A DNA stretch of 64,000 bases, taken from positions 17,068,948 to 17,132,947 of the forward strand of contig NC_057743.1 of the NCBI RefSeq assembly GCF_004010195.1, given 5' to 3'. The notes beneath the pieces were generated by a model, which saw only the letters and a program-made list of their open reading frames with translations, was not told where the DNA came from and made no database searches. This document shows, piece by piece, positions 3,006 through 51,965 of the stretch. This DNA comes from Chiloscyllium plagiosum (taxonomy: Eukaryota). Position numbers and translations under genes: made by a program. Positions within the stretch are counted from its first letter, which is position 1, and every line of letters begins with the position of its first letter.

Positions 3006-3204
3006 CATGATTTGGAGGTGCCGGTGTTGGACTGGGGTGTACAAAGTTAAAAATCACCAGGTTATAGTCCAACAGGTTTAATTGGAATCACTAGCTTCCG
3101 GAGCGCCGCTGCGTTGTCAGGTGCCACCTGTGAAGAACGCTCTGAAAGCTAGTGCTTCCAATTAAACCTGTTGGATTATAACCTGGTGTTGTGTGATTTT
3201 TTAA
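3006..3204. mobile_element. Palindromic Penelope-derived mini-element, family A
   Basis: Inverted arms (CCAGGTTATAGTCCAACAGG / CCTGTTGGATTATAACCTGG) plus an unpaired ~40-nt tail; 11-bp TSD CTCAGGATCCT at 2995-3005 and 3205-3215. Confidence 0.8.
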
Positions 3205-3831
3205 CTCAGGATCCTGAGCTTGAGAAAGAGAATCCATCTGCTGTTCGACTCCCGGTCACAATTCTTCAAACCTGTTCTTGAAACTGCATCCGCTAAACCT
3301 GTAAAGGGCTACATTTGGCAAAAGCACCTTCCACTTTCAGACACAAGGAATAACTGCTCCTAGCAAGCTGTCGAATGGGGAGCCTGTGCACTGCTGGGAA
3401 AAGCCAGCAATCTGAGAGCATCCAGATCCTGGAAATCTATCAGACCAACTTCCTTCAAATATATAAATTGGAAAATAAATGCAACACATTCTGTGAGGCA
3501 CGGTGACAAATTCAATCTGAGTTTGACTGGGTTTTCAAACTGCTGTTGCTGAGGTCAGACAACTGCAATAAACAGTAAAACAGGTTGTCCCTTTCAGGTC
3601 AAGTGTGTGTTTACAAAATGCCTTGTGTCCCAAATAACTGGCTAAAAATAAATACAGCAACATGCTTGCTGCTGGGGTGCTTTAAGGAAGGAGCTCACCA
3701 GGGTCTGAATGAACCAGTTGCAGCCTGCATAGCGCCCCTAAGCACCATGCCCAGCCCTCCTCCTATGCCCGCTGGACGTGCGTTTCCTTTCTAAGTGGTA
3801 AACAAGATTAATGACATCAACAGCACTCGGC

Positions 3832-3848
3832 TGACCTCCTGTTGAACC
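3832..3848 (-). promoter_or_regulatory. Canonical DR5 retinoic acid response element GGTTCA-acagg-AGGTCA in DHRS3 intron 1
   Basis: Plus strand reads TGACCT-cctgt-TGAACC, an exact RGKTCA-N5-RGKTCA; extra half-site TGAACT at 3861-3866; DHRS3 is a known RA-induced feedback gene. Confidence 0.6.
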
Positions 3849-4097
3849 CGAGGCTGTGACTGAACTGCAAGGTGCTCCTCCAGCTACTCGAGAGAAAACG
3901 AGGCTTTCAAAGCATTCAGCAAACCTTGTGGCGGGGGTGGCAGTATTCCCATCTCTGAGCTGAGAGGCCCAGAGTTCAGATCCCACTTGCTCCGGAGCTG
4001 TACCCTGAGCAATACAGGGAGGACGCAGAACAAGCTAAACACAACACACATCGGAAACAAAACAACAGCAAATAAAGGGGCAAAATGTGAGAGGAAG

Positions 4098-4413
4098 TTA
4101 GATTAGATTCCCTACAGCGTGGAAACAGGCCCTTAGGCCTAACCAGTCCACATCGACCCTCCGAAGAGTAACCCACCCAGACCCATTTCCCTCTGAATAA
4201 TGCACCTAGCACTACGGGCAATTTAGCATGGCCAATTAACCTGACCTGCACATCTTTGGACTGTGGGAGGAAACCAGAGCACCCGGAGGAAACTCACCCT
4301 GACACGGGGAGAATGTGCAAACTCCACACAGACAGTCGCCTGAGGCTGGAATCGAACCTGAGACCCTGGCACTGTGAGACAGCAGTGCTAACCACTGAGC
4401 CACCGTGCCACCC
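4098..4413 (-). mobile_element. HE1-type tRNA-derived SINE, near full length
   Basis: A box TGGCTCAGTGG, B box GGTTCGATTCC, conserved body and (TCTAA)n tail; many copies in the window. Confidence 0.9.
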
Positions 4414-4759
4414 ACAGGCACAAAAAGAATGGGGGTGGGAGTCGGGGTGGTAAAGGACAAAATAAATGAATACAACAGAACGACAAGAAATGGCAGAGTT
4501 ATGACAGAACAAAAGCAAACAGTTTAGGAAAAGTTACTTTTCTTTAAAATGAGTGAATTACGACCACAGGATTGGCGTTTTTATCCAACTGGCGTCAAAC
4601 TGAATTATTTTTTTAACCCCCGCTGCCCCATCCCGAAGTCCACAATTCAGATGCAACCAAACACCATAAATTAAATGCAACCAGTGTGGCCCAATTATTT
4701 CCCTGGTGGATGTCCATGTTAATCCTCAAATCCCGGTCTCCAGATATCATAATTCTCTT

Positions 4760-5207
4760 AGCGAGTTTTGAGACACTACATTGGACAAACAGACAGAAAA
4801 CTAGCCATCACGATACATAAACATCAACTAGCCACAAAAAGACATGACCCACTCTCACTAGTGTCCTCACATACGGATGAGGAAGGACATCACTTCGACT
4901 GGGACAACACATCCATCCTAGGACAAGCCAAACAGAGACACACATGAGAATTCCTAGAAGCATGGCATTCCAACCGGAACTCAATCAACAAACACATTGA
5001 CTTGGACCCCATTTACCACCTCCTGAGAAAAAGAACTGGAAATGACATAATCACAGAAAATGACATCACCAACCCAAGGAATTTAAATACATAAATAAAA
5101 AGCGGGCCATACCACCAGCGCTTCACCAGAGACTCTCACTGATGATGTTACCTAGAATGGTGACGAAAAGTCTGGAAACAAACCTTCCAGCTCAACATAC
5201 ATCCATT
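4760..5207 (+). mobile_element. Penelope-like element 3' fragment (GIY-YIG endonuclease remnant plus hammerhead-bearing terminal repeat)
   Basis: Translates to HYIGQTDRKLAITIHKHQ...HHFDWDNTSILGQAKQRHT*EFLEAWHS; 11-bp TSD ATAATTCTCTT at 4749-4759 and 5208-5218. Confidence 0.8.
5137..5174 (+). ncRNA. Minimal type I hammerhead ribozyme-like motif
   Basis: CA-CTGATGA-TGTTACC(tagaat)GGTGAC-GAAA-AG-TC-TG: conserved core, stem II and a UH cleavage site. Confidence 0.6.
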
Positions 5208-6068
5208 ATAATTCTCTTCCTAAACAACTCAGCCTTACAATGTCTCTTCCTCTCTCTATCAATCCACTTTTCACAAAAAATAAAGTCACTCTGGCCAAGC
5301 TCTTGGCCAAACAGTCATCTTCTTTTTATATTAAGCAGTTTAGTGCCAAAGTCAGGGCTAACAATGCTCCAGTGAAGTGCTTTAAGATGTGTTACTGAAA
5401 TAGAGGTGCTATATAAATGCAAGTTTTGGCTAGTGTCAGAACCTACTCTCTACATCATCAATTGCATTACTGTCTGGAACAGGACAAGTTGGGACACAAG
5501 GAAGGGGCATGTTGATGTTGGGTAATCTCAACTAACTACACTGAACCTCAAAACCCCTCCACCCCTGAAATAATGTCAAAGAGGCATAAACCTGCTGTAA
5601 ACCCCCCCACCCCAGCTCCCAAAAATGGCTCCAATTCAGCAGGGCGGTGGGGAAACGTTGGCTAAGACCAGGTTTAGAGTTGGCTGTGATGCCTCTGATG
5701 GTTGAGCAGCCAGGATTAACATAGTTAACATTAATGGAGCAGCACTGATTGCAAAATCCAGGGTCCAATACATGACTAAAAGAACTCCTAGGGCACTAAG
5801 AACACTGGAGACTAAGTAACTCTGGAAGACAATGGTGGAGGAGGAAGGGATGGGGGAAGGGCTGTAAAACTGGAGCAAGGCAATACAGTACGCATTTTAT
5901 AATCAATGTTAAATTCTTTTAAGATGTGTGGAGAAGCAAAACTTTCGAAATCGCTGATCCTGTTCTATCACTGGGCCAGAATCCTGGAACTCCTTCCCAA
6001 GCAACATTGCAGAGGACCTGCAGCACATTGACTGCGCTGGTGCAAAACCCTTTTTCATGGGAGATTAA

Positions 6069-6375
6069 GGGCAGGCACGGTGGCTCAGTGGTTAGCACTG
6101 TTGCCTCACAGCACCAGGGTCCTGGGTTCGATCCCAACCTTGGGTGACTGTCTGTGTGGCGTTTGCACATTCTCCCCGTGTCTGCGTGGGTTTCCTCCGA
6201 GTGCTCTGGTTTCCTCCCACAGTCCAAAGATGAGCAGTAATTAGCCATGCTTAAATTGTCAATTAGGTGCATTAGTCAGATGGAAAAGGGGTTTGGGTGG
6301 GTTACTCTTCGGAGGGTCGGTGTGGATCTGTTGGGCCGAAGAGCCTGTTTCCACACTGTAGGGAATCTAATCTAA
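6069..6375 (+). mobile_element. HE1-type SINE
   Basis: A/B boxes, HE1 body and AATCTAATCTAA tail. Confidence 0.9.
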
Positions 6376-6753
6376 ATGCTGGCCTTGTCAGTGGTATCCA
6401 TATGCAACCAGCGAGGAAAATTCTTAAAAGCCAAGAAGCTGCAGAGGGGGTTCCTGTATTTACTGAGTGCTGCAGAGAAGGCTGAAAGCATAAAAGTCCA
6501 GTCCCAAATTATTAACTTCATATCACTTGCAGGTCTTCACTTTACTCCAAATGATCTCACAAACCCATGACCCAAACAAACACTTTTGTCCCTACACAGA
6601 TACCAACAACAACCCCAAACTCCTCAAAGAAATTTAAAATACTCCACAAGGCTTGAATGCAATGACTACATGAAGATGTTCACTTGCAGTAATACCAGCC
6701 AACTTCTGCAGCTCTACCTCAAATCTAGTATCAGCACTGGTTCCCTCATAGAA

Positions 6754-7090
6754 AGTTAAAAATCACGCAACACCAGGTTACAGTCCAACAGGTTTATATG
6801 GAAGCACTAGCTTTTGGAGCGCCGCTCCTTCATCAGGTGGTTATGGAGTATAAGATTGTAGGACACAGAATTTATAGCTAAAAAGTTTACAGTGTGATGT
6901 AATTGTAATTATATATTGAAAAAGACCTGGATTGTGTGTTAAGTCTTTTAGAATGGGCATGTGGGTTTCAGTGCTTTCATATGTAAATCCCAGAACTTCC
7001 TTCTCAAGTGAACTTTAACAATAAGTGCCATGTTGGCTCAAATAATGCATTGAAGGTGTGAGGTGCCCTGTGTGAGATTGTCTGTCCATC
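6754..7090 (-). mobile_element. Penelope family A terminal-repeat fragment with a mutated hammerhead (GAAA->AAAA)
   Basis: Same sequence as the mini-element arms, extended; minus strand reads CAC-CTGATGA-AGGAGC(ggc)GCTCC-AAAA-GC-TA-GTG at 6805-6839. Confidence 0.7.
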
Positions 7091-7382
7091 ATAGAAGCCT
7101 TCTAATTAGTTAGCTATAAGCAATCACCAAATACACACCAGCCATGTCTGATATCCATGCTTTACATTAGGAGTCACTGGATTAACCATCACATGCGAGA
7201 GCCCTGATCAATTTCCTTCTGCTCAATTGTACCCAATGGAATGATTCAAGTAAATCCAGAGGCTCAAAGCAATTTAGAATCATTCTGTCTTATGTTGTAG
7301 TATCAACCACTGATGCCAAGAACACTCCTTTCTCCTCACTTAAATTGCCTTATTCTCCCAGTTGCCATGGTAGCATCTAAAG

Positions 7383-8033
7383 TAGACAGGCAGGAGGCTG
7401 GAAGAACACAGCAAGCCAGGCAGGGGGTGCAGAAGTCGATGTTTCAGGTGTAACCCTTCTTCAGGACTGGGGGTGGGTGTGGGAGGGAGCTGCAGATAAA
7501 GGGCGTAGCGGGGGGGGCAGGGGGGTGAGGTGGGAATAGGTGAAGACAGGTAGAGGGTACGACCTGGCTGGACAATGGGAGGAATGGATCCGGTTGGTGG
7601 CTGGGAGGGGGAGAGGCTGGGAAAGGAGTCAGGGGATGCCGAATGGAAGTTATTTGATGTTGGAGAACTCAATGTTGAGTCCTCCGGACTGTAGGTAGCC
7701 CAGGCGAAAGATGAGGTGTTCCTCCTCCAATGTGGGCTGTGGTTTGTTTTAGCAATGGAGGAGGCCAAGAATGGTCATGTCTGAAAGGGAGTGGTTGGGG
7801 GAATTGAAATGGGCAGTGACTGGGAGGTCTGGTCGGCCCCTGCGGGCCTGGCTGAGACACTTGGTCAGCTGTTCCCTAAGTTTACGTTTGGTCTCCCCGA
7901 TGTAGAGAAGACCACATCGGGATCACCTGATGCAGTAAACTAGGTTGGAGGAGAGGAAGGTGGATCTCTGTCTCACCTGGAAGGACTGTTTGAGACTGTC
8001 TACTTTGAATTCCAGCATCTGCAGTGTTTTTTA
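7383..8033 (-). mobile_element. Penelope-like (Neptune-type) element 3' fragment with GIY-YIG remnant and inverted tail
   Basis: Minus strand encodes SFQVRQRSTFLSSNLVYCIR*SRCGLLYIGETKR...HFNS...LEEEHLIFRLG; 18-bp TSD CCATGGTAG(C/A)ATCTAAAG at 7365-7382 and 8034-8051. Confidence 0.85.
7434..7468 (-). ncRNA. Minimal type I hammerhead ribozyme-like motif
   Basis: AGTC-CTGAAGA-AGGGT(tac)ACCT-GAAA-CA-TC-GACT: perfect 4-bp stem I and intact core, downstream of the GIY-YIG remnant on the same strand. Confidence 0.65.
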
Positions 8034-8261
8034 CCATGGTAGAATCTAAAGCCTCAGATTTAGCTTGGACTGTGAGCTTAGTAGATCATGGACATTACCA
8101 CTACTCTACTGTCTCATCTTTACCTTTTCTAATCTTATAATAACATTTAGAAATAGTTAGCCTGTAGTGGGGCACTGTAACAGAGAAACAATCAATCAAT
8201 CCAAGGAAGAAATTAGCAATGGCACAGGATAAGCCACTGTTGGGTCTTAATGAGAAGGACG

Positions 8262-8417
8262 CAACACCAGGTTATAGTCCAACAGGTTTATTGGGAAGCA
8301 CTAGCTTTCGGAGCAGGACCAGCGCTCTGAAAGCTTGTGCTTCCAAATAAACCTGTTGGACTATAACCTGGTGTCGTGTGATTGTTAACTTTGCCCACCC
8401 AACACCAGCACCTCCAC
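8262..8417. mobile_element. Palindromic Penelope-derived mini-element, family A
   Basis: CAACACCAGGTTATAGTCCAACAGG ... CCTGTTGGACTATAACCTGGTG inverted arms with tail. Confidence 0.75.
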
Positions 8418-8499
8418 GTTAATGAGAAGCAGCACTGTCCTTGCAAAAGCAGATGTACTACACATTGCTATCATGGACTGAACAAGTTACATTGTGATC

Positions 8500-8728
8500 A
8501 CAGACTCCCTACAGTGTGGAAGCAGGCCATTCAGCCCATCAAGTCCACAAAGAGCATCCCACCCAGATCCACCCCATACCTGTAACCCTGCACACCCCAT
8601 ACCTAACTCACCTGACCTGCACATTACTGGACACTACAGGGCAATTTAGCATGGCCACCCCGCTCAACCTGCACATCTCTGGTCTGTGGGAGGAAACCCA
8701 CTCAGAGAAGGGGAGAACATGCAAACTC
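8500..8728 (-). mobile_element. HE1-type SINE, 5'-truncated and diverged
   Basis: Similarity to the other HE1 copies (body and tail). Confidence 0.75.
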
Positions 8729-9675
8729 CTGTTGTGTACATCTCAGCGGTGCATGTGGCATTGTTAACCTACTGCCTCAACCAATGATGTTGGCTGCCCC
8801 ACATGAGAACAGTAGTGTTTATAAAATCTTAGCTACCACAAGTCAACAAGTCCCAGTCATTAGTATCAACCTCAGCTACAAGGCTTACCCCATTCAGTCA
8901 GTTTCACTACGTTCTGTTGCTGAGGGATTATGGCATAATCCAGCATGTGGGTGATACTGGTAACCAAAACCTGGAAAATGCTGGCTTTAAGCGATGCCAA
9001 AATGGGTGCAAATGGGATAGTGAGCCACACACCAAAATGGCCCTGAGATAGGAATAACAGACCAGCTTGTGAGCTCAGCATTCCTGTTCCCACTGTCTTT
9101 ACATCTGATGCCAGGGGAGGGAAGGATAGGAATGCTATCTGGCCTCTTCCTGTGGTGGGGATAATACAGACTGCCCCTTGTATTATAGGTCAGGGTCCAT
9201 GGGTACTGAACACATTCATTCCAAATTGTCCAGTCCAGACAGTATTAATAAGCTATTGCACTGGGGGAGGCATCAGAGAATATCCAAGTTCTGCCCAATT
9301 AACCCTCTAGTACACACTATCCTAATGATGTAGTGGTAGTGCCACTACCTTTGGGTCAGAAATTCTGGGGTCAAAACCCACCTGTTCCTGGGATGTTGAT
9401 GTAAACAACTGCTCACTGTCCAGCCAGGACGGGCTGGTTCAAAGGGACTTGTGCCCTGGCAACAGGTCAGTACAAACTGCATGCAAACGGGCAAAAGACA
9501 CCTTGGAGCTAAATAGGTAAGATGTGAGTTGTTGTTTGACGTCAAATGTTGCAAACTATGTTGCTACTTTTGAGAAGCGCAGTAGCTACTGTACACCTCC
9601 AGTTCCTATATGCTTCAGGGATGCGATCCACCATTAGAATGGCAATTCAGCTCAATTACAACAAACCAGAGGTTA

Positions 9676-9846
9676 AAATTCGGAGATGCCGGTGTTGGAC
9701 TGGGGTGTACAAAGTTAAAAATCACACAACACCAGGTTATAGTCCAACAGGTTTAACTGGAAGCACCTAATGAAGGAGCGTCGCTCCGAAAGCTAGTGCT
9801 TCCAATGAAACCTGTTGGACTATAACCAGGTGTTGTGTGATTTTTA
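9676..9846. mobile_element. Palindromic Penelope-derived mini-element, family A, with a single hammerhead core at the hairpin apex
   Basis: ~51-bp inverted arms (9716-9766 / 9796-9846) enclose CTAATGA-AGGAGC(gtc)GCTCC-GAAA-GC-TA; 8-bp TSD AGAGGTTA at 9668-9675 and 9847-9854. Confidence 0.8.
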
Positions 9847-10922: not shown

Positions 10923-11120
10923 AAGTTAAAAATCACACAACACCAGGTTATAGTCCAACAGGTTTATTTGGAAGCACTAGCTTTCGGAGCGCTGCTCCTT
11001 CATCAGTTGTTTGGAGATTAAGACCATAAAACAAAATAATTTATAGCAAAAGATTACAGTGTCATGCAACTGAAATGATATATTGAAGAAACCTGGATTG
11101 TTATTAAGTCTTTCATCATA
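10923..11120 (-). mobile_element. Penelope family A terminal-repeat fragment with intact hammerhead core (10975-11006)
   Basis: Minus strand reads CTGATGA-AGGAGC(agc)GCTCC-GAAA-GC-TA-GTG; colinear with 6754-7090. Confidence 0.75.
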
Positions 11121-12670: not shown

Positions 12671-13010
12671 ACACACACAAACACACACACAGACTCTCAC
12701 AATATACACACATACATACACACACACATACACACACAGACACACAATATACATACTCACCCAGACACACATATACATACACTCACCCAGACACACTAAC
12801 ACACAAACGCACTCACCCAGACACACTTATACATAACTCACCCAGACACACTAACACACATATACATACACTCACCCAGACACACTAACACACAAACGCA
12901 TACTCACCCAGACACACAAACACACATATACACACTCACTCAGACACACTCACAGACACAAACATATACATACACTCACTAGACACACACTCACACAGAG
13001 ACTCACACTC
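12671..13010. repeat. (CA)-rich compound microsatellite at the start of DHRS3 intron 1
   Basis: ACAC / ACTCACCCAGACACAC units abut the splice donor. Confidence 0.9.
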
Positions 13011-13012
13011 AC

Positions 13013-13207
13013 CTTCCTCGCCCCTTGCTTGGCGAACTCCAGGGCCAGGTGGCGGCCGATTCCCCTGCCTCCCCCGGTAATGAGCACCGTGTCCCGGCTC
13101 AGCTCCCTCAGCCTGACCGGCAGCAGTAGCGACACGGCGGCTTTCACCACGTAGAAAACCATCTGCACGGGGAAAAGCAGGAGGGAAGCCAGGCTCCTCC
13201 AGTCCAT
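13013..13207 (-). CDS. DHRS3: Short-chain dehydrogenase/reductase 3 (retinaldehyde reductase), coding exon 1; remaining exons are not found in the window and presumably lie left of it
   Basis: [65 protein letters not shown] (65 codons, 195 nt) matches the DHRS3 N-terminus with the TGxxxGxG Rossmann motif; ends at AAG|GTGAGT donor; alternative in-frame ATG at 13219. Confidence 0.95.
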
Positions 13208-16380: not shown

Positions 16381-16512
16381 AGTTAAAAATCACACAACAC
16401 CAGGTTACAGTCTAATGGGTTTATGTGGAAGCACTAGCTTTCGGAGCGCTGCTCCTTCATCAGATTTTTAACATTGTCTGCCCCAGCCCAACACTGGCCC
16501 TGCCACATCACA
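16381..16512 (-). mobile_element. Penelope family A mini-element with intact hammerhead core
   Basis: Plus strand CACTAGCTTTCGGAGCGCTGCTCCTTCATCAG, followed by the inverted tail. Confidence 0.7.
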
Positions 16513-21310: not shown

Positions 21311-22009
21311 AGATAATTATGTAGCTCATCCCCATTCCAAAGGAAGGCAAGTTGCTGTGGCGATATCCATCTTTTTCATTGTAGTCTTGATAATAACAGA
21401 GCAGTCTCCAATGTTCTTTCCTCCACATGACTGACCAGGAAATTCTCCTGCTCCTGTTGCCTGCTACTGGCACGTGTTGGAAGATTGACAGGTTGACATC
21501 CGACCTGTTTGTTGTATGTTGTGAACATAACCCTCCTTGACATCATGAGTGAGTGAATGATTTATTGTCACATTTATCTTGGGAGATACAATGAAAAGTT
21601 TTCTGTGGCCACCAGTGTCATTTCAAGGTGCAAAAGAGTGAGAAGGATGTACTCAAATATAGATCACCTTTATCACCCGGAGTCCCAGATACCACTCTGA
21701 GCATGGTCAACCCTCCAGGCCTGCTACCACCTAGTGTCCCTGCTCCTTCATCACTGCAGCATCACTGCCAATTCCAGGAGTCCACACATCGGGCCTCCGA
21801 AGCCAGGGGTCCCAACTCCAGTCACCACCGATACCAGCCTCTCCATGATATCAGGAAGATGAGGGAAAAAAAAGGAAAGGAGAGAGAAAGAAAAGGATCA
21901 AGTCCTGATATGGGATTTGAATCTGGAGCTTCTGGCCCAGAGGCAAGGACACTACCCACTGTGGCCCCTTTAGCTGCCAGAATGAACAAAGGGCTGAACG
22001 TACCACCTA

Positions 22010-22183
22010 GAGTCGAGTGTGTGGTGCTGAAAAAGCACAGCAGCTCAGACATTTTTCCCGATGAAGGGCTTATGCCTGAAACTTCGATTTTCCTGCTCCT
22101 CGGATGCTGCCTGACCTGCTGTGCTTTCCCAGCACCACACTCTTGGCTCTGAGCTCCAGCATCTGCAGTCCTCACTTTCTCCT
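22010..22183. mobile_element. Penelope-derived mini-element, family B
   Basis: GATGAAGGGCTTATGCCTGAAAC...GCATCTGCAGTCCTCACTTTCTCC, with a partial inverted arm. Confidence 0.7.
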
Positions 22184-25091: not shown

Positions 25092-25301
25092 GCTGAAAAT
25101 GTGTTGCTGGAAAAGCGCAGCAGGTCAGGCAGCATCCAGGGAACAGGAGAATCGACGTTTCGGGCATAAGCCCTTCTTCGGACTTATGCCCGAAACGTCG
25201 ATTCTCCTGTTCCCTGGATGCTGCCTGACCTGCTGCGCTTTTCCAGCAACACATTTTCAGCTCTGATCTCCAGCATCTGCAGACCTCACTTTCTCCTGAA
25301 A
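25092..25301. mobile_element. Young palindromic Penelope-derived mini-element, family B
   Basis: ~80-bp near-perfect inverted arms (GCTGAAAATGTGTTGCTGG...CGGGCATAAG); 11-bp TSD CACTGATGTGG at 25081-25091 and 25302-25312. Confidence 0.85.
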
Positions 25302-28806: not shown

Positions 28807-29720
28807 GGAGAAAGTAAGGACTGCCAATGCTGGAGATCAGAGTCAAAAAATGTGGCGCTGGAAAAGCACAGCCGGTCAGGCTGTTATGAAGATGTGGGTG
28901 TACTGTAGCTTTAACAAAGTTAAAAGCAAGCAGAATTACCTGACAGCACCAAGTGTTCTGAACAAGATACAATGTACCCTTTTGGTCCAGCAGCTAGTGT
29001 AGCTGGTTGCCTGGAGACAAAAACAAATTTGAATTAGGCCAATCAGTTTAAATTATACCCTAAGAAAACCAAACTCCAATCAAGTTTGAATTGAGTATAT
29101 TGTCAATATTAAAAGCCAGTGACACAATCCGATCCTTTGGGGGTATAAGACCAGGGAAAATCGGACAGTTGAAAGAGAACTGCCAAGCCACCAGCACGTA
29201 CAGGCTGTCCGAAACACAGCTCTCTTAGAGGCAACCTTTATCGATCAACAACCTGTGGAAGAGAAACCCTGAGAAGAAAATCAACAGAGAAAGATACAAA
29301 GGGAAGATTTCACAGCTGGCTGGGTTTGAAATTTGAATTTTTGGTAAATCTTAATCGGGGTTTTATCGGACTAGTATTATCGAACGGAAAATAAACGATA
29401 AGTTAGAGGAAGGAGTTGTAAATAGTTGTGAGTTAATTTTTCCCTGTAATACTTTAAGAAACAACGTTGTTAATTTTTACTTTAAATAGCCCTTGGCCTC
29501 TCACATTTTCACAGATTACTGCACGGTGTAAACCTTTTCTGTGTTGCTGGTTTCAATTAGCAGGGGATGGGAGTTTACCCCGTGCCGTAACATTCGAGGA
29601 GCAGGAGAATAACCCCTTCATCGGGAATGTCAAAGAGCTTGTGCCTGAAATGTCGACTCTCCTGCTCCTCGGATGCTGCCTGACCGGCTGTGCTTTTCCA
29701 GCACCACAATTTTTTGACTT
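28807..29720. mobile_element. Family B Penelope mini-element split by an LTR-like insert, itself inserted in an older tRNA-SINE (28722-29850)
   Basis: Arm 28807-28881 resumes at 29593; imperfect flanking duplication GACTT(G)GTTCAAG at ~28788 and ~29716. Confidence 0.7.
28882..29592 (+). mobile_element. Solo-LTR-like insert (~710 bp)
   Basis: TGTTA...TAACA terminal inverted ends and internal TATAAGA near 29145; interrupts the host element cleanly; TSD not clearly recoverable. Confidence 0.55.
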
Positions 29721-35745: not shown

Positions 35746-36929
35746 GGGTTTCATGATTTAGGCTATCTGGTGGAAAGCACCTCTTCAATGTAGTTGCACT
35801 CATATCACCTCAATTCTTAACTGCGTACACATTATTATCCAATTGTGGGTGACGCTGGTCATTTATTGCCCATCTCTAATTGATCAAGGTAAGCAGTTAC
35901 CATGGGTCTGGAATTATATGTAGGCCAGACCAGGTGAGGATGACAGATTCCCTTTCTTAAAAGGCATCTGTGAACCATATATGCGTTTTTGCAACAATGA
36001 CTACATGTTTGCCATTAGGCTACTAGCTCTTACACCAATTTGTTTTTAAAAATTGAGTTCAAATTTCACTATCTACTCAGATTTGAACCCATTTCTTCAG
36101 AGCATTAGCCTGGGTTTAGCTGAATGAGTCCTGTGACATTACTACTAGGCCGTCCCCTAGATGGCAACACTCCCTTTGGAAGCCTTTCAGAGAGGGTTCA
36201 TTTAGTTAATTATTGGGGTGAGGGAGTTTTCTTCTGAGGAAAAGTTGGACAGGTTGGGCCTATAAATATTGGAATCTAGATGAATGAGAACTGATATTAT
36301 TGAAGCATTTAAGAGCCTGAGGGGACCTGACAGGGTGGATCTAAAAGGATGTTTTCGCTTGTGGAGTAGTCTAGAACTGGAGGACAATAAGGAATAACCC
36401 ATTAAATTAGAAATTAGGATTTTATTTCTCAGATGGCTATTAATCGTCTGCAAAAAGTAGTGGAGGCAGGGTCATTGAATTTTTTTTCGGCCAAATGGGA
36501 TAGATTCTTGACTGACAAAGCAATTGGAGGTAGACAGGAAAGTAGGCAAGATCAGCCAGGATCCTAACAATTCATGCAACAAGGTTAAGGGGCTGAATGG
36601 CCTCCTAAATCCTATGTTCCTGTGTTCAACATTGACATTGCTTCACATCTGCCTTTCTTGTCTCTACTCTTGAAAACCTCCAGAACGCAGACAAGAGCCC
36701 CCCACTGCACCATCCACCTGGCACTGAAGCCATTTCTGTAGCCCGAGGTTGAAAGGTCACAGGTCAGAGGCATATAACAGCAGACTGTCAAATCTGCCCT
36801 GACCAACTCATGCAGTCGAGAGTCTTTCTTCAACCTTAATGCGGCCCAGCCCTGTAGAAATGAGCACTTCAACAAGTTACAATAAAAACAAACCCTTCTT
36901 GGCCTAATGTTTCCCTGTTGGTTTCCCAG

Positions 36930-37713
36930 GTACCGCCTTGCACCTGAGTACAGGTACCCCTCTCAGCTCGAGGACTGCCTAAATGCCACTCTGCATTTCC
37001 TCAAGACCACAGATGATTATGGAGTTGACCGCAACAGAGTCGTTGTGTGTGGGGATAGTGCTGGGGGTAACCTGGTTGCCGCCGTGTGTCTGAGAGTCAC
37101 TTCCATGAAGGACAGCTTGGATGTTCCAACCCTCCGCGCCCAGGTCCTGATCTACCCAGCCCTTCAAATGGTCGACTTCAACCTGCCCTCCTACCGACAA
37201 AACCAGTTTGTGCCCATCCTGTTTCGAACACGCATGATCTTCTTCTTCCTGCAGTATCTGAACGGAGACATGTCCATTGCAGAAGATGTGCTGTCAGGTC
37301 ACCATCTACCTGTGGAAGTCAAATCTAAATACAGGAGGTGGCTAAACCCAGATCTGATCCCAGGCAACTTTCAGGTCGGAGATCAGAAGCCCAACCTTGC
37401 CCTCACCCATGTCGATGAGGTTTATGATCTTGTGAAGCCCAGCTTAGAGCCAACCTTTGCCCCACTCCTTGCCAGTGATGCTGCCATTAGCAGGCTCCCA
37501 CCAGCGTACATTTTGACCTGTGAGTTTGACGTACTACGGGATGACGGATTGCTGTTCAAGAAACGATTGGAAGACAATGGCGTTCCAGTGTCCTGGTACC
37601 ATATTCAAGATGGCTTCCACGGGATAATCAGCTTCTTTGATAATGGTTACCTGACCTTCTCATCCGGGAAACAGGCCGTTGATAACATTGTCTCCTTCCT
37701 TAGAGACATGTAG
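36930..37713 (+). CDS. AADACL4: AADACL3/4-like exon 4 (catalytic triad); full CDS join(26347..26523,31152..31377,33493..33556,36930..37713) = 416 aa
   Basis: CCCAG|G acceptor; YRLAPE, GDSAGG (Ser), CEFDVLRDDG (Asp), DGFHG (His); TAG at 37711-37713. The symbol choice between AADACL3 and AADACL4 rests on synteny, not phylogeny. Confidence 0.95.
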
Positions 37714-38679: not shown

Positions 38680-38908
38680 ACCAAAGTCAAAACGTGTGGT
38701 GCTGGAAAAGCACAACCGGTCAGGCAGCATCCGAGGAGCAGGAGCACAGCTCCTCATCATGCACCCCCCCCCCTCACATTTCTGTTGAAGAGCCTATGCT
38801 TAAAACATCGGCTTTCCTGCTCCTCGGATGCTGTCTGACCTGCTGTGCTTTTCCAGCACCACACTTTTTGACTCTGATCTCCTGCATCTGCAGTCCTCAC
38901 TTTCTCCT
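38680..38908. mobile_element. Palindromic Penelope mini-element, family B (diverged)
   Basis: GTGGTGCTGGAAAAGCACA...TGTGCTTTTCCAGCACCAC inverted arms with tail. Confidence 0.75.
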
Positions 38909-39747
38909 CAGTTTGACCACCTTGGTCACAGGTTAGTCTTTAAATTGATGGGACTCTGTTTACTTGACTTCCCTCTCCTTGACCTCCTTAATACCCACAC
39001 CTCCTGCCTACAAGGAGTGACATTCATAAGTTTTGAGGCGGTGGAAGAGGAGCAGCCTATCTCTGAGAAGCAGCAATTCTGTAATGGGAGGGGGTTGGGG
39101 AAGATTACAGAAACTGAGATTACACCACCGAGAAACTTCCTCAGTTTCCCAACTGAAGCTTACGGCAGGAACTACAATGCATGTTGACTCAATTTTACGG
39201 CTAATAATGTACACAGTTGGCAAGTAGTGAACAGCACTGGTCAAATTTCCAGCATGCACTCCCTACTGCAAACTCAACTCCACATCTGACCCTTTTACAT
39301 ATCTGCAAACAAGAGGTACTCAAGCAACACTGTTCCACAGAGCGGAACGATTCACAGCGATTATTAGCAATGTGATTATTACCCCTGCAGGGATTCAAAC
39401 ACTGGGAACCACAAGAATGTATCTCTCTCTGTAAATTTATAGCATGATTCTTTTAAAGTCCCTTTTCTTCTCAGGATTGTTGCGATGCCTGGTATTCCCT
39501 GTTTGGCCTCCATGATGGGAAATGGGCACAAACATATAACATGCGTTTGTCAAACGCGATTTGGTTGAAATGTGATTGAAATGTGAATTTGCAGACTTTT
39601 TTTTTGAATAAGGCGATTCCACCCTCGGCAGCAGATGAGCAGCAAAACCCAGCCTCAGGATCCTCTGTCTGCAAAATGCCCACTCAGTGTGTTCAGCTAA
39701 AACAGGAATGCAATCAGCTCTGCAAGCCTTGAAACTTAGATTGAAAC

Positions 39748-39917
39748 AAAGTTAAAAATCACACAACACCAGGTTATAGTCCAACAGATTTAATTGGAAG
39801 CACACTAGCTTCCAAGCTAGTGTGCTTCCAATTAAATCTGTTGGACTATAACCTGGTGTTGTGAGATTTTTAACTTTGTACACCCCCAGTCCAACACCGG
39901 CACCTCCAAATCATGAC
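39748..39917. mobile_element. Palindromic Penelope mini-element, family A, hammerhead core deleted
   Basis: ~65-bp near-perfect inverted arms around a TCCA loop; 11-bp TSD TAGATTGAAAC at 39737-39747 and 39918-39928. Confidence 0.85.
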
Positions 39918-40370: not shown

Positions 40371-40593
40371 TGAAAAATGTGTTGCTGGAAAAGCGCAGCA
40401 GGTCAGGCAGCATCCAGGGAACAGGAGAATCAACATTTCGGGCATGAGCCCTTCTTCAGGAATTCCTGAAGAAGGGCTAATGCCCGAAAAAAATGATTCT
40501 CCTGCTCCTTTGATGCTGCCTGACCTGCTGCGCTTTTCCAGCAACACAGTTTTCAGCTCTGATCTCCAGCATCTGCAGTCCTCACTTTCTCCT
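40371..40593. mobile_element. Palindromic Penelope mini-element, family B, with two divergent hammerhead cores around a GAATTC axis
   Basis: CTTCTTCAGG-AATT-CCTGAAGAAG centre; 15-bp TSD AGTGCCTTAGAGAGC at 40356-40370 and 40594-40608. Confidence 0.85.
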
Positions 40594-45197: not shown

Positions 45198-45265
45198 GGA
45201 GCTGAAAGTGACACATTGAAAGTGACACACATGCACCTAAGCCTGGCCAATGTTCTTGCAGCGAC

Positions 45266-45669: not shown

Positions 45670-45982
45670 TAAAATTCCTACAGTGTGGAAACAGGCAATT
45701 TGGCCCAACAAGTCCACACCAACCCTCCAAAGAGTAACCCATCCCCCTATTAATCTACATTTCCCCCTGACTAATGCACCTAACCTACACATCCCTGAAC
45801 ATGATGGGCAATTTAGCCTGGCCAATCCGCCTAACCTGCACATCTTTGGATTGTGGGAGGAAACCCATTCTGACATGGGAGAACATGCACACTCTACACA
45901 GACAGTCGCCCGGGGTTGGAATTGAACCTTCATCCCTGGCACTGTGAGGCAGCAGTGCTAACTCCTGAGCCACCGTGCCACC
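45670..45982 (-). mobile_element. HE1-type SINE
   Basis: A/B boxes and body similarity. Confidence 0.85.
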
Positions 45983-46959
45983 AGGTGGAGGGATGGAGAA
46001 CCAATGGGAATGTCTGTGTGTTCGTTTTTATTAATTCATGGGATGAGGGCAACACTGGCTATGCCAGCATTTATTGCCCATCCCTAATTGCCCAGAGAGC
46101 AGTTAAGAGTCACCCACATTGTCGTGACAGGATTAAGACCTCTAGATGCTAAACAGGAACATATTTTCATTTTGCCTCTGTAATTTAATTTGTCCTCTTG
46201 CTGAAAATCCCTGAATTACTTACCTTCTTGGTCAGGATGCGAGGTAATGTAACAGGGACAGGACTTGCTCCACTCAAGGTCTGACCTTCCAGTGGGAGCC
46301 CATGCTGGAGGCTATTGGATTGAAAATGACAAACAGAAGTGAAATAGATCCTATTGTCAAGAGTCTCACCTTCATCATCCTCTACACCTGAGGAGAAAGG
46401 TTAGTTGGTGCTCCAATGGATGTACTCCATACATTTTACCTTACTGGGCTGCTTTGCGAAAAGGAAGATATAAACTGCCCAACCAAGTTGAATAACAAAT
46501 TATTTTGGAGTGGGCCAAGATGTTGCGAAAGCCAAATAGTTCTATCTTGACAGGACATGAGCACCTCAACATTTGTTGCCCATTCCTAATTTCCTTTTAA
46601 TGGAGTGCTTTGCTCAGCCATTGAAGAGTCAACCATCTTGCTGTGAGTCACATGTAGGCCAGAGTGAATAAAGATGACCTATTTCCTCCTCTGAAGGGCA
46701 TTAGTCAATCAGAGAGATTTTTACACCAAAACACAATGGGCACCGTCACTGATACTAGCTTTATATTCCAGGGTAATTAGCCAAATTTAAATTTGCCAGA
46801 TGACTCCTCATCTTCAGTGTATTCACCAGGGTGCCTGGATTACTGGTCCTGTGACATTACGTCTCTACCCCAGCTCTGGAGATGAAGAGTGAGCAGTTTG
46901 AAATGTACAAAAACAGGGACATTGCGAGTTTACTGGTATAACCTCCAAATTATGACTGG

Positions 46960-47507
46960 TACACCCTCAATGTAAAACAAAATTATTGCTCATGTCTTTT
47001 TTAAATCCCTCTCCTGTCAGCTTTAAAATGTACCCTCTAGTCTTGAAATCCTCAGTCCTAGGGATAGGACAACTGCCATTAACACTATCTACACCCCTCA
47101 TTATTTTACAAACTTCTATAAGGTTGTCTCTAAACCTCCTACGCTCTAGTGAAAAAGTCCCAGTCTACCCAGCCTTTCTTCATAACTCAAACCTTCCATA
47201 CCTGGCAAGGCAAATCCTGGTAAATCTTTCCTGAACCCTCTCCAGCTTAATAATATCCTTCCTATAACTGGGCAACCAAAACTGGGCACAATATTCCAGA
47301 AGAGGCCTCACCAATTTTCTGTACAACCTCAACATGACGTCCCAATTCCTATACTCAAAGGTCAGAGCAATGAAGGCAAGCATGCTAAACACCTTCTTAA
47401 CCACCCGGTCTATATGTGATGCAAACTTCAAAGAATTGTGTACCTGAACCCCTAGGTCCCTCTGTTCTACAACACTACCCAAGGCCCTGCTATTAATTGT
47501 ATAAGCC
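46960..47507 (-). mobile_element. CR1 LINE fragment
   Basis: EQRDLGVQVH...LVRPLLEYCAQFW...LERVQERFTR. Confidence 0.85.
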
Positions 47508-48502
47508 ATGCAATCACAGGGATTGTAAACACCAGATAGTGATGGCTAAACCCATAAAGGGAATCAGGATCAACCTCTTCAATTAAAGTAGCAGTGTAAT
47601 GTGGGGATTCGTTAGCTCAGCTAGCTGGCTGGTCAGTGATGCCAACAGCATGGGTTCAGTCCCCACACCAGCTGAGCTCACCATGAAGGACTGTCCTTCT
47701 CAACCTCTCCCCACGTGAGGTATAGTGACCCTCAGGTTAAACTGCCACCACACTCCCTTTCTAATCCTACACTCTGGTGACTTCACCTAGTTAGAATGTC
47801 AAACTTGTTATAACAGTGTATAACTGTGACAAATAACACAAATAAATACAGGGAACAAAAGAGGATGATTTATTATATTATAATAGTGGGCATTGTTCAC
47901 TAGCCCATCCTTATTTGCACTGATTATGTCAATGGAGAGAGATGATGTAGGATGGGAAGGGGCTTGAGAGCAGTATAAATGCTAGCATGGACAAATTGGG
48001 CTGAATGCGCTGGGTCGGTGCAGTAAAACTCCACAATGTGCTGGCTATGTCAGCCGAATACAGCACTGACTCAGCATATACCTGTAACCCCTGAAACGGA
48101 CCCGTTAGAAGGTTTTAACCCTTCACAGCCCACTAGGTATTGAGGGAAATTGTACAACATCCCCTATCACTCTGGCTGGTATCAGAAAACAACCCAAAAT
48201 GCTATTGTGCTCTGCAGCTATCCTCCTGCCATCATTGACTAAACCGCTAGAGGAACTGGACCATTCAAAACAAAAGCAGATACACCAACCTTTTCCCAGC
48301 TACAACCAGTTCTGAGTAAGGGTCACTTGACCCAAAACATTAACTCTGCTTTCCTACCACAGATTCTGCCAAACCTGCTGAGATTTTCTAGCAATTTCTG
48401 ATTCTGTTTCAAAACAAGGTGAAATTTATTCTCAGGAGCTCAGGGTTACTGGAAAAGCTGGTATTTATTTCCCCAACTCGAGTTGCCCTTAAGAAGCTTG
48501 AT

Positions 48503-49062
48503 TCACTGACCATGTGGTCACTGCCTTTGTCTCACTTCAACAGTTTTAAAGTGCCATTGTCTTGATTTCCTTTTCCCCCAAAGTTCCAAAACAATGCAAC
48601 AGCTTATAAAACTGTGGCTCAATGGTTAGTACTACTGCCTCACAGTGCCAGGGACCTGGGTTTGATCTCAATCTCAGGTGATTGTCTGTGTGGAGTTTGT
48701 ACATTTTCCTCATGTCTGTGGGTTTCCTCCGGGTGCTCTGGTTTCCTCCCACAATCCAAAGATGTGCAGGTCAGGTGAACTACCATGCTAAATTGCCCGT
48801 AGTGTTCAGGGATGTGTCGATTAGATGCAATAGTCAAGGGTAAATGTAGAGTAATAGGGTAGGGGAGTGGGTCTGGGTGAGTTACTCTTTGGAGGGTTGG
48901 TGTGGAATTATTGGGCTGAATGGCCTGTTTCCATACTGCAGGGATCCCATGAAAACAGTAATTATTGCTCCTGATATTCAAGGAAATCAGCTCCAACACT
49001 GAAAGTGCCTCAAAAAAAGAGCAGTTCTTACAACCTCAGTTTTTTCCCTTCCTCCATCTTGG
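48503..49062 (-). mobile_element. Isolated 5'-end fragment of the CR1 element at 60641-63716, interrupted by an HE1 SINE (48612-48947, plus)
   Basis: Colinear with 63500-63716 (CCCCAAAGTTCCA..ACAATGCAACAGCTTATAAAAC / AGGAAATCA.CTCCAACAC). Confidence 0.7.
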
Positions 49063-49490
49063 AGAGGCTATAGGGAGAGACTGAACAGGCTGGGACTGTT
49101 TTCCCTGGAGTGTCAGAGGCTGAGGGGTGACCTTACAGAGGTTTATAAAATCATGAGGGGCATGGATAGGGTAAATAGAGAAGGTCTTTTCCGTGGGGTG
49201 GGGGCGTCCAGAACTAGAGGGCATAGGGTTTAGGGTGAGAGAGGAAAGATTTAAAGGGGACATAAGGTGCAACGTTTTCATGCAGAGGGTGGTGTGTGTA
49301 TGGATTGAGCTGCCAGACGAAGTGGTGGAGGCTGGTACAATTATAACACTTAAAAGGCATCTGGATGGGTATATGCATAGGAAGAGTTTAGAGGATATGG
49401 GCAAACAGGACTAGATTAGGTTAGGATATCTGGTTGTCATGGGCGAGTTGGATTAAAGGGTCTATTTTCATGCTGTACATCTCTATGACT
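49063..49490 (+). mobile_element. CR1/HER1 LINE 3' fragment
   Basis: Typical 3' ORF2 and tail sequence. Confidence 0.85.
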
Positions 49491-49616
49491 GAATGATTGT
49501 GAGCTGTTGGAGATCTTTCTCTGAAATATCTGCAGTGAGAGTACATCGAGGTGCTTTTAGGGAGGGAGTTCCAGAATTTTGACCCAGTAACAGTGAAGAC
49601 ACAGCAAACTTTCCTC

Positions 49617-49747
49617 ATTCCTGAAGAAGGGCTTATGCCCGAAACGTCAATTCTCCTGTTCCCTGGATGCTGCCTGACCTGCTGCGCTTTTCCAGCAACA
49701 CATTTTCAGCTCTGATCTCCAGCATCTGCAGACCTCATTTTCTCCTC
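49617..49747 (+). mobile_element. Family B Penelope terminal repeat with intact hammerhead core (49617-49652)
   Basis: ATTC-CTGAAGA-AGGGC(ttat)GCCC-GAAA-CG-TC-AATT; direct repeat CACAGCAA at 49600-49607 and 49748-49755. Confidence 0.75.
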
Positions 49748-50041
49748 CACAGCAATGTATTGCCAAGCATGTAGTTTGCAGGATGGCTGACAGGTGGCAG
49801 TGTAAGCATGTGTCCGCTGTCCTGCTCTTTCTGGGTGGTTGAAGTTGTGGGTTTGGGAGATGTTGTTGAAGGAGTCTTGGCAAGTTGTTGCAGTGTATCT
49901 CGTGGACAGTATACATTGCCGCTGTGATGGGTTGGTGGTGCAGTGAGTGGATGGTTAAGGTAACGGATGGGGTATCAGTCAAGCAGGCTGCTTTTAATTC
50001 TACTGTAGATCACCAGAGACTCTTTCTTTTGGTTCATACAG

Positions 50042-50152
50042 TTCATCAAGGGGACTTGCTTCGGGACCACCACATACCGAGCTGACTACAAGCGCTATCC
50101 ATACACCATGCCAGATATCAGAGAGAAAGTTCTAATCCAGAAAAAGCATCAG
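50042..50152 (+). CDS. CFAP107: CFAP107 exon 2
   Basis: TACAG| acceptor; FIKGTCFGTTTYRADYKRYPYTMPDIREKVLIQKKHQ; 111 nt, phase 0/0; CAG|GTGAGA donor. Not in the ORF track. Confidence 0.85.
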
Positions 50153-51334
50153 GTGAGATGAAGAGGGGGCAAAGGGTGGGGGTGAGGGTAAGATAAGTGG
50201 TTCTTCGAACCAGGAATGTTGAATAGCATTTGGGAAAAATGCTTTCTGAACCCTGGCGATCAGACAGATACGAAATGGTTTTGAGTACGTGTCACAGTGC
50301 TGGTTGGGGAGGAAGTGTGTGCTGGAGTTTGTTTCAGTGGGCACCAGCTGGTGTCTGGTTCCTGCTCCAAATATCTGAGTCCAGTCAGTGAATCTGTTTG
50401 GATAAGGGGTATTGCCCACACTTAGCAGCAAGGGTGGATGGAAAGCAACCTGAAACAGGAGCTCTTGCTGATTTGTCTAGGCTGCTTGTCGCTATTATCT
50501 TGGTCACAAAGAAAAGTGATCTGTGGGCCGTCATGCAGAATCCTGCTGAGGAGTCAGGGACCCATGACACCCCAAAGTCTGAGCATCCACTGCTGTTTGC
50601 AGGTTCCCCTTGTATCCTAAGATGCCATCTGAGTGCTAATTGGGAGTGAATGTCTCCTTGGTGCTCTATTTCAACAGCAAACATTGTCTACCTCTCATAT
50701 TGCTTTCGTAAGCTTCAAATTCACCTCCATTAACATATGCCGTTGTGCAGTGATTTATCAGTTTAATAACAAGGAGTTGATGACTTTCCTATTACAATAG
50801 TATTCACCACACCGATATTGTAACTAGCCAATCTGGTCATAGACTGGTAGAGTATTACAGCCTAGAAAAAGGCCCTTTGGCCCATTGTGTCAGTGTCAGT
50901 CATCAAGTACTGACCCACTCTCCTTCCATTTCCCATTCGGGTCAGTCCATTTGCAAGGTGGAATTTGGAAGCCATCAGTGAGCTGAAATACCTCTGAAGG
51001 TGATTCAGTCTGAGATAGTGGTCATCACAGCTCCTTCCAGGTACCTTTGCTGAGAAGTGATCTTGATCTGTTTTCACTAGAACTCTACCTCCCTCTGTCT
51101 GAGCAGCACGAAACTGATGGAAAGTGCTTTGCTAGGTGTGTACCGCTCTGTACTGGTAATGAAGTTTGGGGAAATTCCTATGGGCTGGCGTAATCCTCTC
51201 AGTGTCTGGGGGATTCAGATGTTTAGCCAACAATAAAACAATTGGTGTGTGTCTCTCTGAACATTAATCTCAACAACCCTGTAATCTCAGGTAAAAAAGA
51301 CAGGATTTGATTCATTGTAAATCAGGAGCCCTTG

Positions 51335-51662
51335 AATCATAGAAGCCTACAGTGTAGCAGCAGGCTATTCAGCTCATCAAGTCTACACTGGCCTTCCAAA
51401 GAGCATCCCACTCAGACCTACCCACTATCCCATCTCTGTAACCCTGCATTCCACATGGCAAATCCATTAGGGTCCGCACATATCTGGATATCGTGGGTAA
51501 TTTAGTATTACCAATCCACCTAATCTGCACATCTTTGGACAGTGGGAGGAAACCGGAGCACCCAAAGGAAACCCAGGCAGACTCAGGGAGAATGTGCAAA
51601 CTCCAGACAGACAGTCATCCAAAGGTGGAATCGGACCCGGGTCACTGGAGCTGTGAGCCACC
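51335..51662 (-). mobile_element. Diverged HE1-type SINE
   Basis: Body similarity to the other HE1 copies. Confidence 0.75.
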
Positions 51663-51719
51663 TTGAGAACCCTTATGATTAACGCTTCCTCAGACAGTAC
51701 TTGACCAGGAAGAGACTCT

Positions 51720-51965
51720 AGGAGAAAGTGAGGCCTGCAGATGCTAGTGGGCCAAAGTTGAAAAGTATAGTGCTGGCAAAGCACAGCAAGTCAGGCAGCA
51801 TCCGAAGAGCAGGATAATCGACGTTTCAAGCATAAACCCTTCATCAGGAATGTGGAGGGGTTAGGGGGATGAGTGATGAATAGGGGAGTGGGGGTGGGCT
51901 GTGGGGGGAAGAACTGGGAAGGTGATAGGTGGACGTAGTTGGGGGGTGATAGTGATAAGTCAGTG
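51720..51965 (-). mobile_element. Family B Penelope 3' fragment with intact hammerhead core (51816-51851)
   Basis: Minus strand ATTC-CTGATGA-AGGGT(ttat)GCTT-GAAA-CG-TC-GATT, preceded by a C-rich tract like that of the 7383-8033 element. Confidence 0.7.

What the first reader, a model, noticed from the sequence alone, without database searches (positions are those of the whole stretch)
3006..51965. Dense population of ~200-bp palindromic, hammerhead-ribozyme-bearing mini-elements derived from Penelope-like retroelements
Seen: about 13 short elements in two sequence families (A: 3006, 6754, 8262, 9676, 10923, 16381, 39748; B: 22010, 25092, 28807, 38680, 40371, 49617, 51720). Most have no coding capacity. 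Many are long hairpins with an unpaired ~35-40-nt tail on one side, and several have 8-15-bp TSDs. Their centre reads CTGA(T/A)GA-stem-GAAA-(GC-TA or CG-TC), a minimal type I hammerhead with a palindromic 4-nt stem III (AGCT or ACGT). Established: Penelope-like terminal repeats carry such hammerheads and often insert with an inverted partial repeat plus tail. Inference: these are either extreme truncation products or a self-processing non-autonomous retrozyme/MITE-like class at roughly one copy per 5 kb. The variable hairpin apex favours independent truncation, but amplification of particular hairpins cannot be excluded from one window.
Basis: partly seen in the sequence, partly recalled or inferred. 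Interest (0 to 1): 0.72.

Follow-up and report, generated by a model that had tools for sequence, protein, structure and literature searches.

The report
Penelope hairpins built from capped leader
These hairpin repeats are real and very abundant, but they are not a separate mobile family: each was likely built on the spot when a known jumping gene (Penelope-like) copied the first 90-130 letters of its probably capped RNA into both sides of one DNA cut, so they record a poorly understood step of its replication.

Summary
The repeats are real: 8 of 14 listed copies are hairpins, 5 are single-arm and 1 is probably a split hairpin. An unbiased 577-kb sample gives one copy per 5.2 kb. Families A and B are the end-pieces of two Neptune-type Penelope-like elements with GIY-YIG-coding parents. 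None of the 8 window hairpins keeps an intact hammerhead core.

Junctions recur (159 copies of one), but the hairpin is not the mobile unit:
- 50 young hairpins give 31 loops, and the same loop occurs with the tail on either side.
- Both arms share subfamily variants.
- The tail is one-sided in 47 of 50.

Arm ends pile up at one base just 5' of the ribozyme, not at its cut site. An untemplated G precedes it (68/100 in B, 94/100 in A; controls 14 and 21/100), and a TATA box lies 30 nt upstream in A.

Best reading: twin target-primed reverse transcription from two internal start sites runs off a capped RNA end, and the cDNAs are joined head to head. The layout is published; I found no paper reporting the cap signature. 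This scan noted the cap reading before, elsewhere in this genome.

The parts
3006..3204 (.). Family A hairpin, tail on left; hammerhead core mutated in both arms; TSD 11 bp exact (13 with 1 mismatch)
6754..7085 (-). Family A single arm reaching ~250 nt into the parent's 3' UTR, TATAAAT ~30 nt before +1; GAAA box mutated; TSD 12 bp with 1 mismatch
7383..8033 (-).
8258..8418 (.). Family A hairpin, tail on right, apex inside stem II, no CUGANGA; TSD 11 bp
9676..9846 (.). Family A hairpin, tail on left; joined at the 3-nt stem I microhomology; core mutated; TSD 8 bp
10923..11118 (-). Family A single arm with part of the 3' UTR; core boxes intact, stem I not paired
16381..16470 (-). Family A single stub ending a few nt 5' of CUGAUGA; core boxes intact, stem I 2 bp
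22009..22183 (.). Family B hairpin with a 43-nt left arm, tail on right; core mutated; no TSD found
25092..25297 (.). Young family B hairpin, 89-nt arms, 6-nt loop, tail on right; lacks CUGANGA in both arms; TSD 16 bp with 1 mismatch; its junction type recurs at 159 genomic sites
28807..29718 (.). Family B hairpin probably split by a ~720-bp insert (arms 28807-28881 and 29600-29718)
   Evidence: (I13); the split reading is inferred
38684..38910 (.). Old family B hairpin, tail on right; core decayed; TSD 9 bp
39748..39917 (.). Young family A hairpin, 66-nt arms, apex at stem III, no hammerhead core; tail on right; TSD 11 bp
40371..40593 (.). Family B hairpin whose two arms both reach +1; core boxes present, stem III mutated in both; TSD 15 bp
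49608..49747 (+). Family B single arm with tail, extends ~9 nt upstream of +1; core intact, first stem I pair lost; TSD 8 bp
51720..51965 (-). Older family B single arm with tail and pyrimidine-rich 3' UTR; weak stem II

Best explanation
The hairpins are insertion by-products of two protein-coding Neptune-type Penelope-like retrotransposons, each likely built anew at its site by two reverse transcriptions that probably ran off the capped 5' end of the element's RNA. Step 1 (inferred from promoter-like motifs and the G): transcription starts at an A 4 nt (B) or about 9 nt (A) before the hammerhead's CUGA. The RNA then begins with hammerhead, core and tail; in B the ORF's ATG follows at +167 (shown). 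Step 2 (by analogy with the in vitro data in PMC11167929): the GIY-YIG nuclease nicks both strands about 10-16 nt apart and each nick primes RT. One RT starts at about +93 and the other at about +130 (both end positions shown), which gives the one-sided tail. Step 3 (inferred): on the RNA's 5' leader, RT reaches the RNA end after 90-130 nt and adds a C opposite the cap. Step 4 (junctions shown, pathway inferred): the two cDNA 3' ends are trimmed and joined head to head through 1-3-nt microhomology or short templated inserts. If only one arm survives, a single stub results; priming in the 3' repeat of a longer RNA gives the long 5'-truncated copies. The ribozyme is copied uncut and is predicted to be buried in a ~90-bp duplex in any hairpin transcript.
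For: Parents: B continues upstream into GIY-YIG and RT coding sequence (Pfam GIY-YIG 24.5 bits, above cut-off) and downstream of the tail into the ORF start. A continues into a GIY-YIG end. Both have a CX4CxxC linker. De novo assembly: 50 consecutive of 7,334 young B hairpins give 31 distinct loops, 38 when oriented to the tail; 29 microhomology, 19 insertion or mutated, 2 blunt; the commonest loop has the tail on either side, 5 vs 3. At four non-CpG subfamily sites the minor allele is in both arms in 7, 12, 22 and 7 loci against 1.1, 3.4, 11.0 and 1.4 expected, with 1-2 discordant loci per site. 30 loci gathered for one junction span 4 symmetric haplotypes. Two start sites: 3' ends peak at +93 and +130/131 (186 arms); tail one-sided in 47 of 50 B and 20 of 22 scorable A hairpins. 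Either arm can reach further 5' (14 vs 14). Run-off: of 35,633 exact young-B arms reaching C3, 10,499 extend 5 nt past +1. The base before +1 is G in 68 of the first 100 non-C cases in B (4,602 matches) and 94 of 100 in A (553 matches); 26% is expected and the templated base is C. Controls one base either side give 14 and 21 of 100 (Fisher p 4e-15 and 2e-11). Two ORF-bearing copies also begin G-then-+1 (L276, L298). TATAAAT lies ~30 nt before +1 in 15 of 19 printed A copies. Ends at the ribozyme cut (+33) number 125 against 72 at control +37.
Against: No transcript 5' end was observed; the reads laid from a related organism showed no start peak, so cap and promoter rest on DNA signatures. In 18 of 20 A loci inspected the G could come from the opposite arm, and in B singles it is often shared with the target flank; non-hairpin B gives G in 10 of 17. 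G could be a cap-independent terminal addition. B has only TTTATCT at about -31, not a canonical TATA. The hairpin pattern allowed loops up to 30 nt only, so longer palindromes are excluded by design. Arm concordance cannot separate one RNA from two RNAs of one source locus, and gene conversion between arms was not tested. At least one same-junction hairpin is duplicated with its flank (L199), so some recurrences are DNA duplications. No intact full-length parent was recovered; long copies are broken or run into gaps.
Confidence: 0.78

Rival explanations
1. The hairpin itself is a non-autonomous mobile unit (MITE-like or retrozyme-like) amplified from master hairpins, helped by self-cleavage.
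For: One exact junction at 159 sites; 29 other loci 98.5-100% identical to the 25092 hairpin, most with their own TSD; 7,334 young B hairpins.
Against: That junction is about 2% of young hairpins, lacks CUGANGA and spans 4 symmetric haplotypes. Loops occur in mirror image. In the same-junction set, arm-asymmetric differences shared by 2 or more loci were CpG-type pairs, one non-CpG pair, or a 1-nt junction variant. Hairpin RNAs fold at about -170 kcal/mol, burying the motif. One same-strand motif pair within 1.2 kb in 641 kb, made of two different families.
Confidence: 0.04
2. Twin priming is right, but arms end by RT stalling at the folded hammerhead or by random truncation; there is no cap, and the G comes from microhomology bias or terminal addition.
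For: Ends spread over +1 to +13. G is often shared with the flank or the other arm.
Against: G enrichment is confined to one position, at equivalent sites in two families with unrelated leaders, 30 nt after a TATA box in A. Stalling would be expected on the 3' side of the structure, where ends are rare.
Confidence: 0.1
3. One cDNA folds back and self-primes (the self-priming idea of PMC3846280), and the nuclease later resolves the hairpin, leaving the tail.
For: Head-to-head palindromes, concordant arms and templated inserts at the apex are all expected.
Against: Fold-back needs the tail-bearing arm to reach furthest 5', but the split is 14 vs 14. Single stubs end at either site with TSDs. Some loci carry G-then-+1 on both arms (L260/L261).
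Confidence: 0.06

Closest known systems
Insertion units of EN+ Penelope-like elements: inverted 5'-truncated pLTR, optional 30-40-bp tail, TSD (PMC8557442, PMC3846280; passages read)
   Same: Head-to-head inverted copy, one-sided tail, TSD, microhomology at the 5' junction, TATA/Inr-like motifs in the pLTR.
   Different: Here both arms are usually only the 90-130-nt leader, about 10^5 hairpins per genome, with a sharp 5' end and extra G. The passages read attribute the palindromes to self-priming and the tail to nuclease resolution.
PAc, Poseidon of Anolis carolinensis, in vitro (PMC11167929; parts 1-2 of 4 read)
   Same: Both target strands nicked and extended; two internal RT start sites bounding the tail; ribozyme cleavage not needed; predicted dimer.
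   Different: Different clade; its ORF begins in stem II, whereas B's begins at +167. The parts read do not describe hairpins, coupling of the two sites, or a cap-derived G.
Minimal hammerheads of metazoan PLEs (PMC4209133; parts 1-2 of 4 read)
   Same: Type I minimal motif, extra base before stem II, palindromic 15.2-16.2, short stem I; opposite-strand pairs 100-700 bp apart were already noted.
   Different: Cleavage untested here; absent or broken in all 8 window hairpins.
Non-LTR retrozymes (PMC7229834 passages; bioRxiv 10.64898/2026.07.22.740005 parts 1-3 of 5)
   Same: Short, non-coding, PLE-derived, type I hammerhead.
   Different: Retrozymes are head-to-tail arrays giving circular RNAs; these are head-to-head, dispersed and TSD-flanked.
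L1 twin priming and the extra 5' G of full-length L1 (recalled; the cited paper was not held)
   Same: Two primings at one staggered cut, inversion joined by microhomology, cap copied as G.
   Different: L1 primes at poly(A) and at a variable internal site; here both sites are fixed and lie in the 5' leader.

Membership tests
EN+ Penelope-like element (parents) | C-terminal GIY-YIG endonuclease with two cysteines inside the motif | tested here: met
   B: (PF01541 above cut-off). A: by translation and tblastn.
EN+ Penelope-like element (parents) | RT upstream of EN in one ORF | tested here: inconclusive
   B: RT and EN in one open frame in L210 and L212, but RVT_1 only 16.3 bits, below cut-off; no complete ORF. 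A: RT not reached.
EN+ Penelope-like element (parents) | pLTR at both ends, 30-40-nt tail, TSD | tested here: met
   B repeat follows EN and precedes the ORF start, seen in separate copies; TSD 12-19 bp in 41 of 50 hairpins. For A only the 3' position was seen.
Neptune/Nematis clade | CX2-5CxxC linker before GIY-YIG (PMC8557442) | tested here: met
   B L212; A L300.
Neptune/Nematis clade | Placement in an RT phylogeny | not tested
   No reference RTs fetched; the name 'Neptune' rests on the linker motif.
Minimal type I hammerhead | Core boxes, stem II, palindromic stem III, short stem I | tested here: met
   37 motifs in 641 kb; met by the parent-type sequence, by 0 of 8 window hairpins.
Minimal type I hammerhead | Self-cleavage as a dimer | not testable with these tools
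   Unconstrained cofolding of two natural copies did not give the dimeric hammerhead fold as minimum energy.
Non-LTR retrozyme | Head-to-tail repeats with a hammerhead in each unit | tested here: not met
   1 same-strand pair under 1.2 kb in 641 kb, of two different families. Rare arrays elsewhere in the genome are not excluded.
Non-LTR retrozyme | Abundant linear and circular monomer RNAs cut at the ribozyme | tested here: inconclusive
   No begin/end peak in one poly(A) single-cell run of a relative; that library would miss circles.
MITE | Clonal amplification of one internally fixed element | tested here: not met
   31 loops in 50 loci, mirror junctions, arm concordance.
MITE | Symmetric terminal inverted repeats and fixed-length TSD | tested here: not met
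   One-sided tail in 47 of 50; TSD length varies.

The most novel reading that the evidence does not exclude
A dimeric Penelope RT-nuclease sits on one capped RNA with its two active sites locked to two different start sites 37 nt apart, so every two-armed insertion uses each site once. On the 5' leader this yields a strong-stop-like product that is integrated instead of transferred, filling a genome with about 10^5 hairpins. The same rule would explain the inverted repeat, the one-sided tail and why active elements need tandem copies to keep their upstream promoter.
Probability: 0.35. Interest if true: 0.75.

Novelty: new variant of a known kind. Interest (0 to 1): 0.56.

Why it matters
How Penelope-like elements form inverted repeats and the one-sided tail is stated as unresolved in PMC8557442 and PMC3846280 (passages read). 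Thousands of young hairpins act as a fossil record that discriminates between models: two fixed start sites used once each, either arm can be the longer, ends at a probable cap and not at the ribozyme cut. Each point can be tested in the existing in vitro system. For annotation, these hairpins mimic MITEs and microRNA precursors (Rfam MIR860 at 74 bits, below its cut-off), and identical junctions alone do not show that a palindrome is mobile.

Tried and rejected
Identical junction as proof of a mobile hairpin: rejected. Ribozyme-cut RNA as template: no peak at +33 (125 vs 72 at +37), against roughly 2,900 purine-purine-preceded ends at +1 (64 of 100 listed, scaled to 4,602; the patterns cover different stretches, so the ratio is rough); 25 loci inspected were mostly ordinary microhomology joins or small deletions. 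A subfamily with G at -1: rejected for B, the base before G varies (A 25, G 23, T 20) and the flanks are unrelated. A 3' splice site at +1: rejected, the templated bases before +1 are not AG. Rfam: no hammerhead hit. Expression: no RNA holder listed. Laying reads: X21 gave no reads; X20, from a related organism, covered the mini-element in both directions at depth in the hundreds and the ORF start at 0-4, with loose ends at the two start sites and no begin/end peak, as expected from passive transcription of dispersed copies. Intact full-length parent: not found among 16 long-frame candidates, most long frames were N gaps. The local 5'-end profile had only 43 B and 9 A arms and an offset error of one base; corrected, +1 is the largest single B bin (8 arms, 6 with G). 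Three of 33 same-junction loci failed parsing and were dropped; 8 of 30 A loci were unscorable for tail side. Two papers could not be read. No supplementary files were read; those of PMC11167929 (genomic ends of PAc) may bear on the novelty of the 5'-end claim.
Full report
OBSERVATION. All 14 listed sites carry family A or B sequence. Eight are hairpins, five are single arms, and 28807 is probably half of a hairpin split by an insert. TSDs of 8-16 bp were found at 9 of 14. The window is G000:C34:17068948-17132947 of a 3.56-Gb genome; 'shark' is my recall of the repeat landscape and the wording of earlier scan notes, not a result of my calls. Sixty 10-kb stretches taken at round-number positions on 42 contigs (577,266 non-N bases) hold 86 B and 25 A copies, 30 of them hairpins. 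That extrapolates to about 0.5-0.8 million copies and 1.1-2.6 x 10^5 hairpins. The 'hammerhead-bearing' label fits the parent sequence but not the window's hairpins: intact cores occur in 4 single-arm copies and 0 of 8 hairpins, and hairpin transcripts fold into ~90-bp duplexes at about -170 kcal/mol.

PARENTS. Young B copies extend upstream through a 3' UTR into a GIY-YIG end (Pfam) and RT sequence. In other copies the same repeat lies directly before the ORF start, with the ATG at +167. Family A extends into a different GIY-YIG end. Both have the CX4CxxC linker that PMC8557442 (passages) gives for Neptune/Nematis. Longer insertions show the same inverted-arm-plus-tail layout at every size (L119, L131, L132), so the hairpins are the short end of a continuum. 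No intact full-length copy was recovered.

IS THE HAIRPIN MOBILE? But a junction-blind pattern finds 7,334 young B hairpins. The first 50 in genome order give 31 loops: 29 joined by 1-3-nt microhomology, 19 with inserts or mutations, 2 blunt. The commonest loop has the tail on the right 5 times and on the left 3 times, which one master cannot produce. Subfamily variants are shared by both arms far above independence (7, 12, 22, 7 loci against 1.1, 3.4, 11.0, 1.4), and 30 loci gathered for the 25092 junction fall into four symmetric haplotypes. Family A shows the same spread (539 matches, first 50 loci listed). So junctions recur by hotspot, and each hairpin was assembled at its own site.

TWO START SITES. 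Arm 3' ends peak at +93 and +130/131 (186 arms from all loci held, not an unbiased set). The tail is on exactly one side in 47 of 50 B hairpins (p 2e-11 against 0.5) and 20 of 22 scorable A hairpins, so the two arms almost always use different sites. In simple junctions the tail arm reaches further 5' 14 times and the other arm 14 times, which argues against a single cDNA folding back. PMC11167929 (parts 1-2 read) shows in vitro that a lizard PLE nicks and extends both strands, starts RT at two internal sites that bound the tail, and does not need ribozyme cleavage.

WHERE THE ARMS STOP. In the 50 hairpins no arm is templated more than 14 nt above stem II (loops limited to 30 nt). Genome-wide, 10,499 of 35,633 exact young-B arms extend 5 nt past the A at position 12, which I call +1. 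Excluding the templated C, the base before +1 is G in 68 of the first 100 listed B matches and 94 of 100 A matches, by hand count, against 26% expected. One base downstream and one upstream it is 14 and 21 of 100. In A, TATAAAT sits about 30 nt before +1 in 15 of 19 printed copies. In B, +1 lies in an initiator-like TCATTCC (consensus recalled) with only TTTATCT at about -31. Two ORF-bearing copies also start G-then-+1, and contigs of two runs from a related organism show the same G-led start (table 5c). Ends at the predicted cut, +33, are not enriched. Caveats: the G is often shared with the flank or the opposite arm, which fits its use as microhomology but is not independent proof, and no RNA 5' end was seen.

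MECHANISM. Shown: parentage, two fixed 3' ends used once each, concordant arms, microhomology or insert junctions, a 5' pile-up with extra G. Inferred: promoter and cap at +1, twin priming by a dimer, and end joining by the host (the pattern resembles polymerase-theta joining; recalled). The short copies would be complete copies of the RNA's leader rather than random truncations, and dead on arrival because they lack the upstream promoter and the ORF.

COMPARISON AND NOVELTY. The layout is published (PMC8557442, PMC3846280; passages), as are minimal hammerheads and opposite-strand pairs (PMC4209133, parts 1-2) and a pLTR promoter (PMC2377424, passages). The elements fail the retrozyme and MITE tests. 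Ten literature searches listed no paper reporting cap-derived G, run-off at the start site or strict pairing of the two sites in PLEs; most subscription journals, Repbase and Dfam were not searched. This scan has noted these hairpins at least 45 times and the cap reading at least four times in this genome; my reading was recorded before those look-ups.

VERDICT. Real and abundant; not a new mobile class; a new variant of known PLE insertion products with testable mechanistic content. Interest 0.56.

Noticed in passing
window 7383-8033 (-): A third, older PLE family with a broken GIY-YIG end and hammerhead-like core; 40 scored relatives at 81-84% identity.
   Followed up: partly
window 36886-37713 (+): Exon with an alpha/beta hydrolase (Abhydrolase_3, E 3e-39), resembling an arylacetamide deacetylase-like gene (name recalled).
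   Followed up: partly
window about 12950-13150 (-): First exon of a short-chain dehydrogenase-like gene (adh_short, below cut-off).
   Followed up: partly
window 57785-60648 (-): Broken L1-like ORF2 fragments, and many CR1/L2-like RT fragments elsewhere (family names recalled, no Pfam hit).
   Followed up: no
G000:C16:42817619-42817933: Five matches to a family B core piece at multiples of ~47 bp: a minisatellite born from a PLE leader fragment.
   Followed up: no
L199:250-1100: A same-junction hairpin duplicated with its flank at 538-bp spacing; DNA or assembly duplication.
   Followed up: partly
L198:380-460: Apex holds a 39-bp tandem duplication of the junction, suggesting repeated slippage during joining.
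   Followed up: no
L275, L278, L285 leader: The B leader holds a short upstream frame across core and tail before the main ATG, and AG-ending pyrimidine tracts lie at both start sites; no splicing was tested.
   Followed up: no
L032, L033, L070, L078, L081: Some B subfamilies have a 4-bp stem I where the youngest has 2 bp, a mismatch and 1 bp; stem II loop sequences vary with pairing kept.
   Followed up: no
L257:1500: A family A stub inserted into a family B arm.
   Followed up: no
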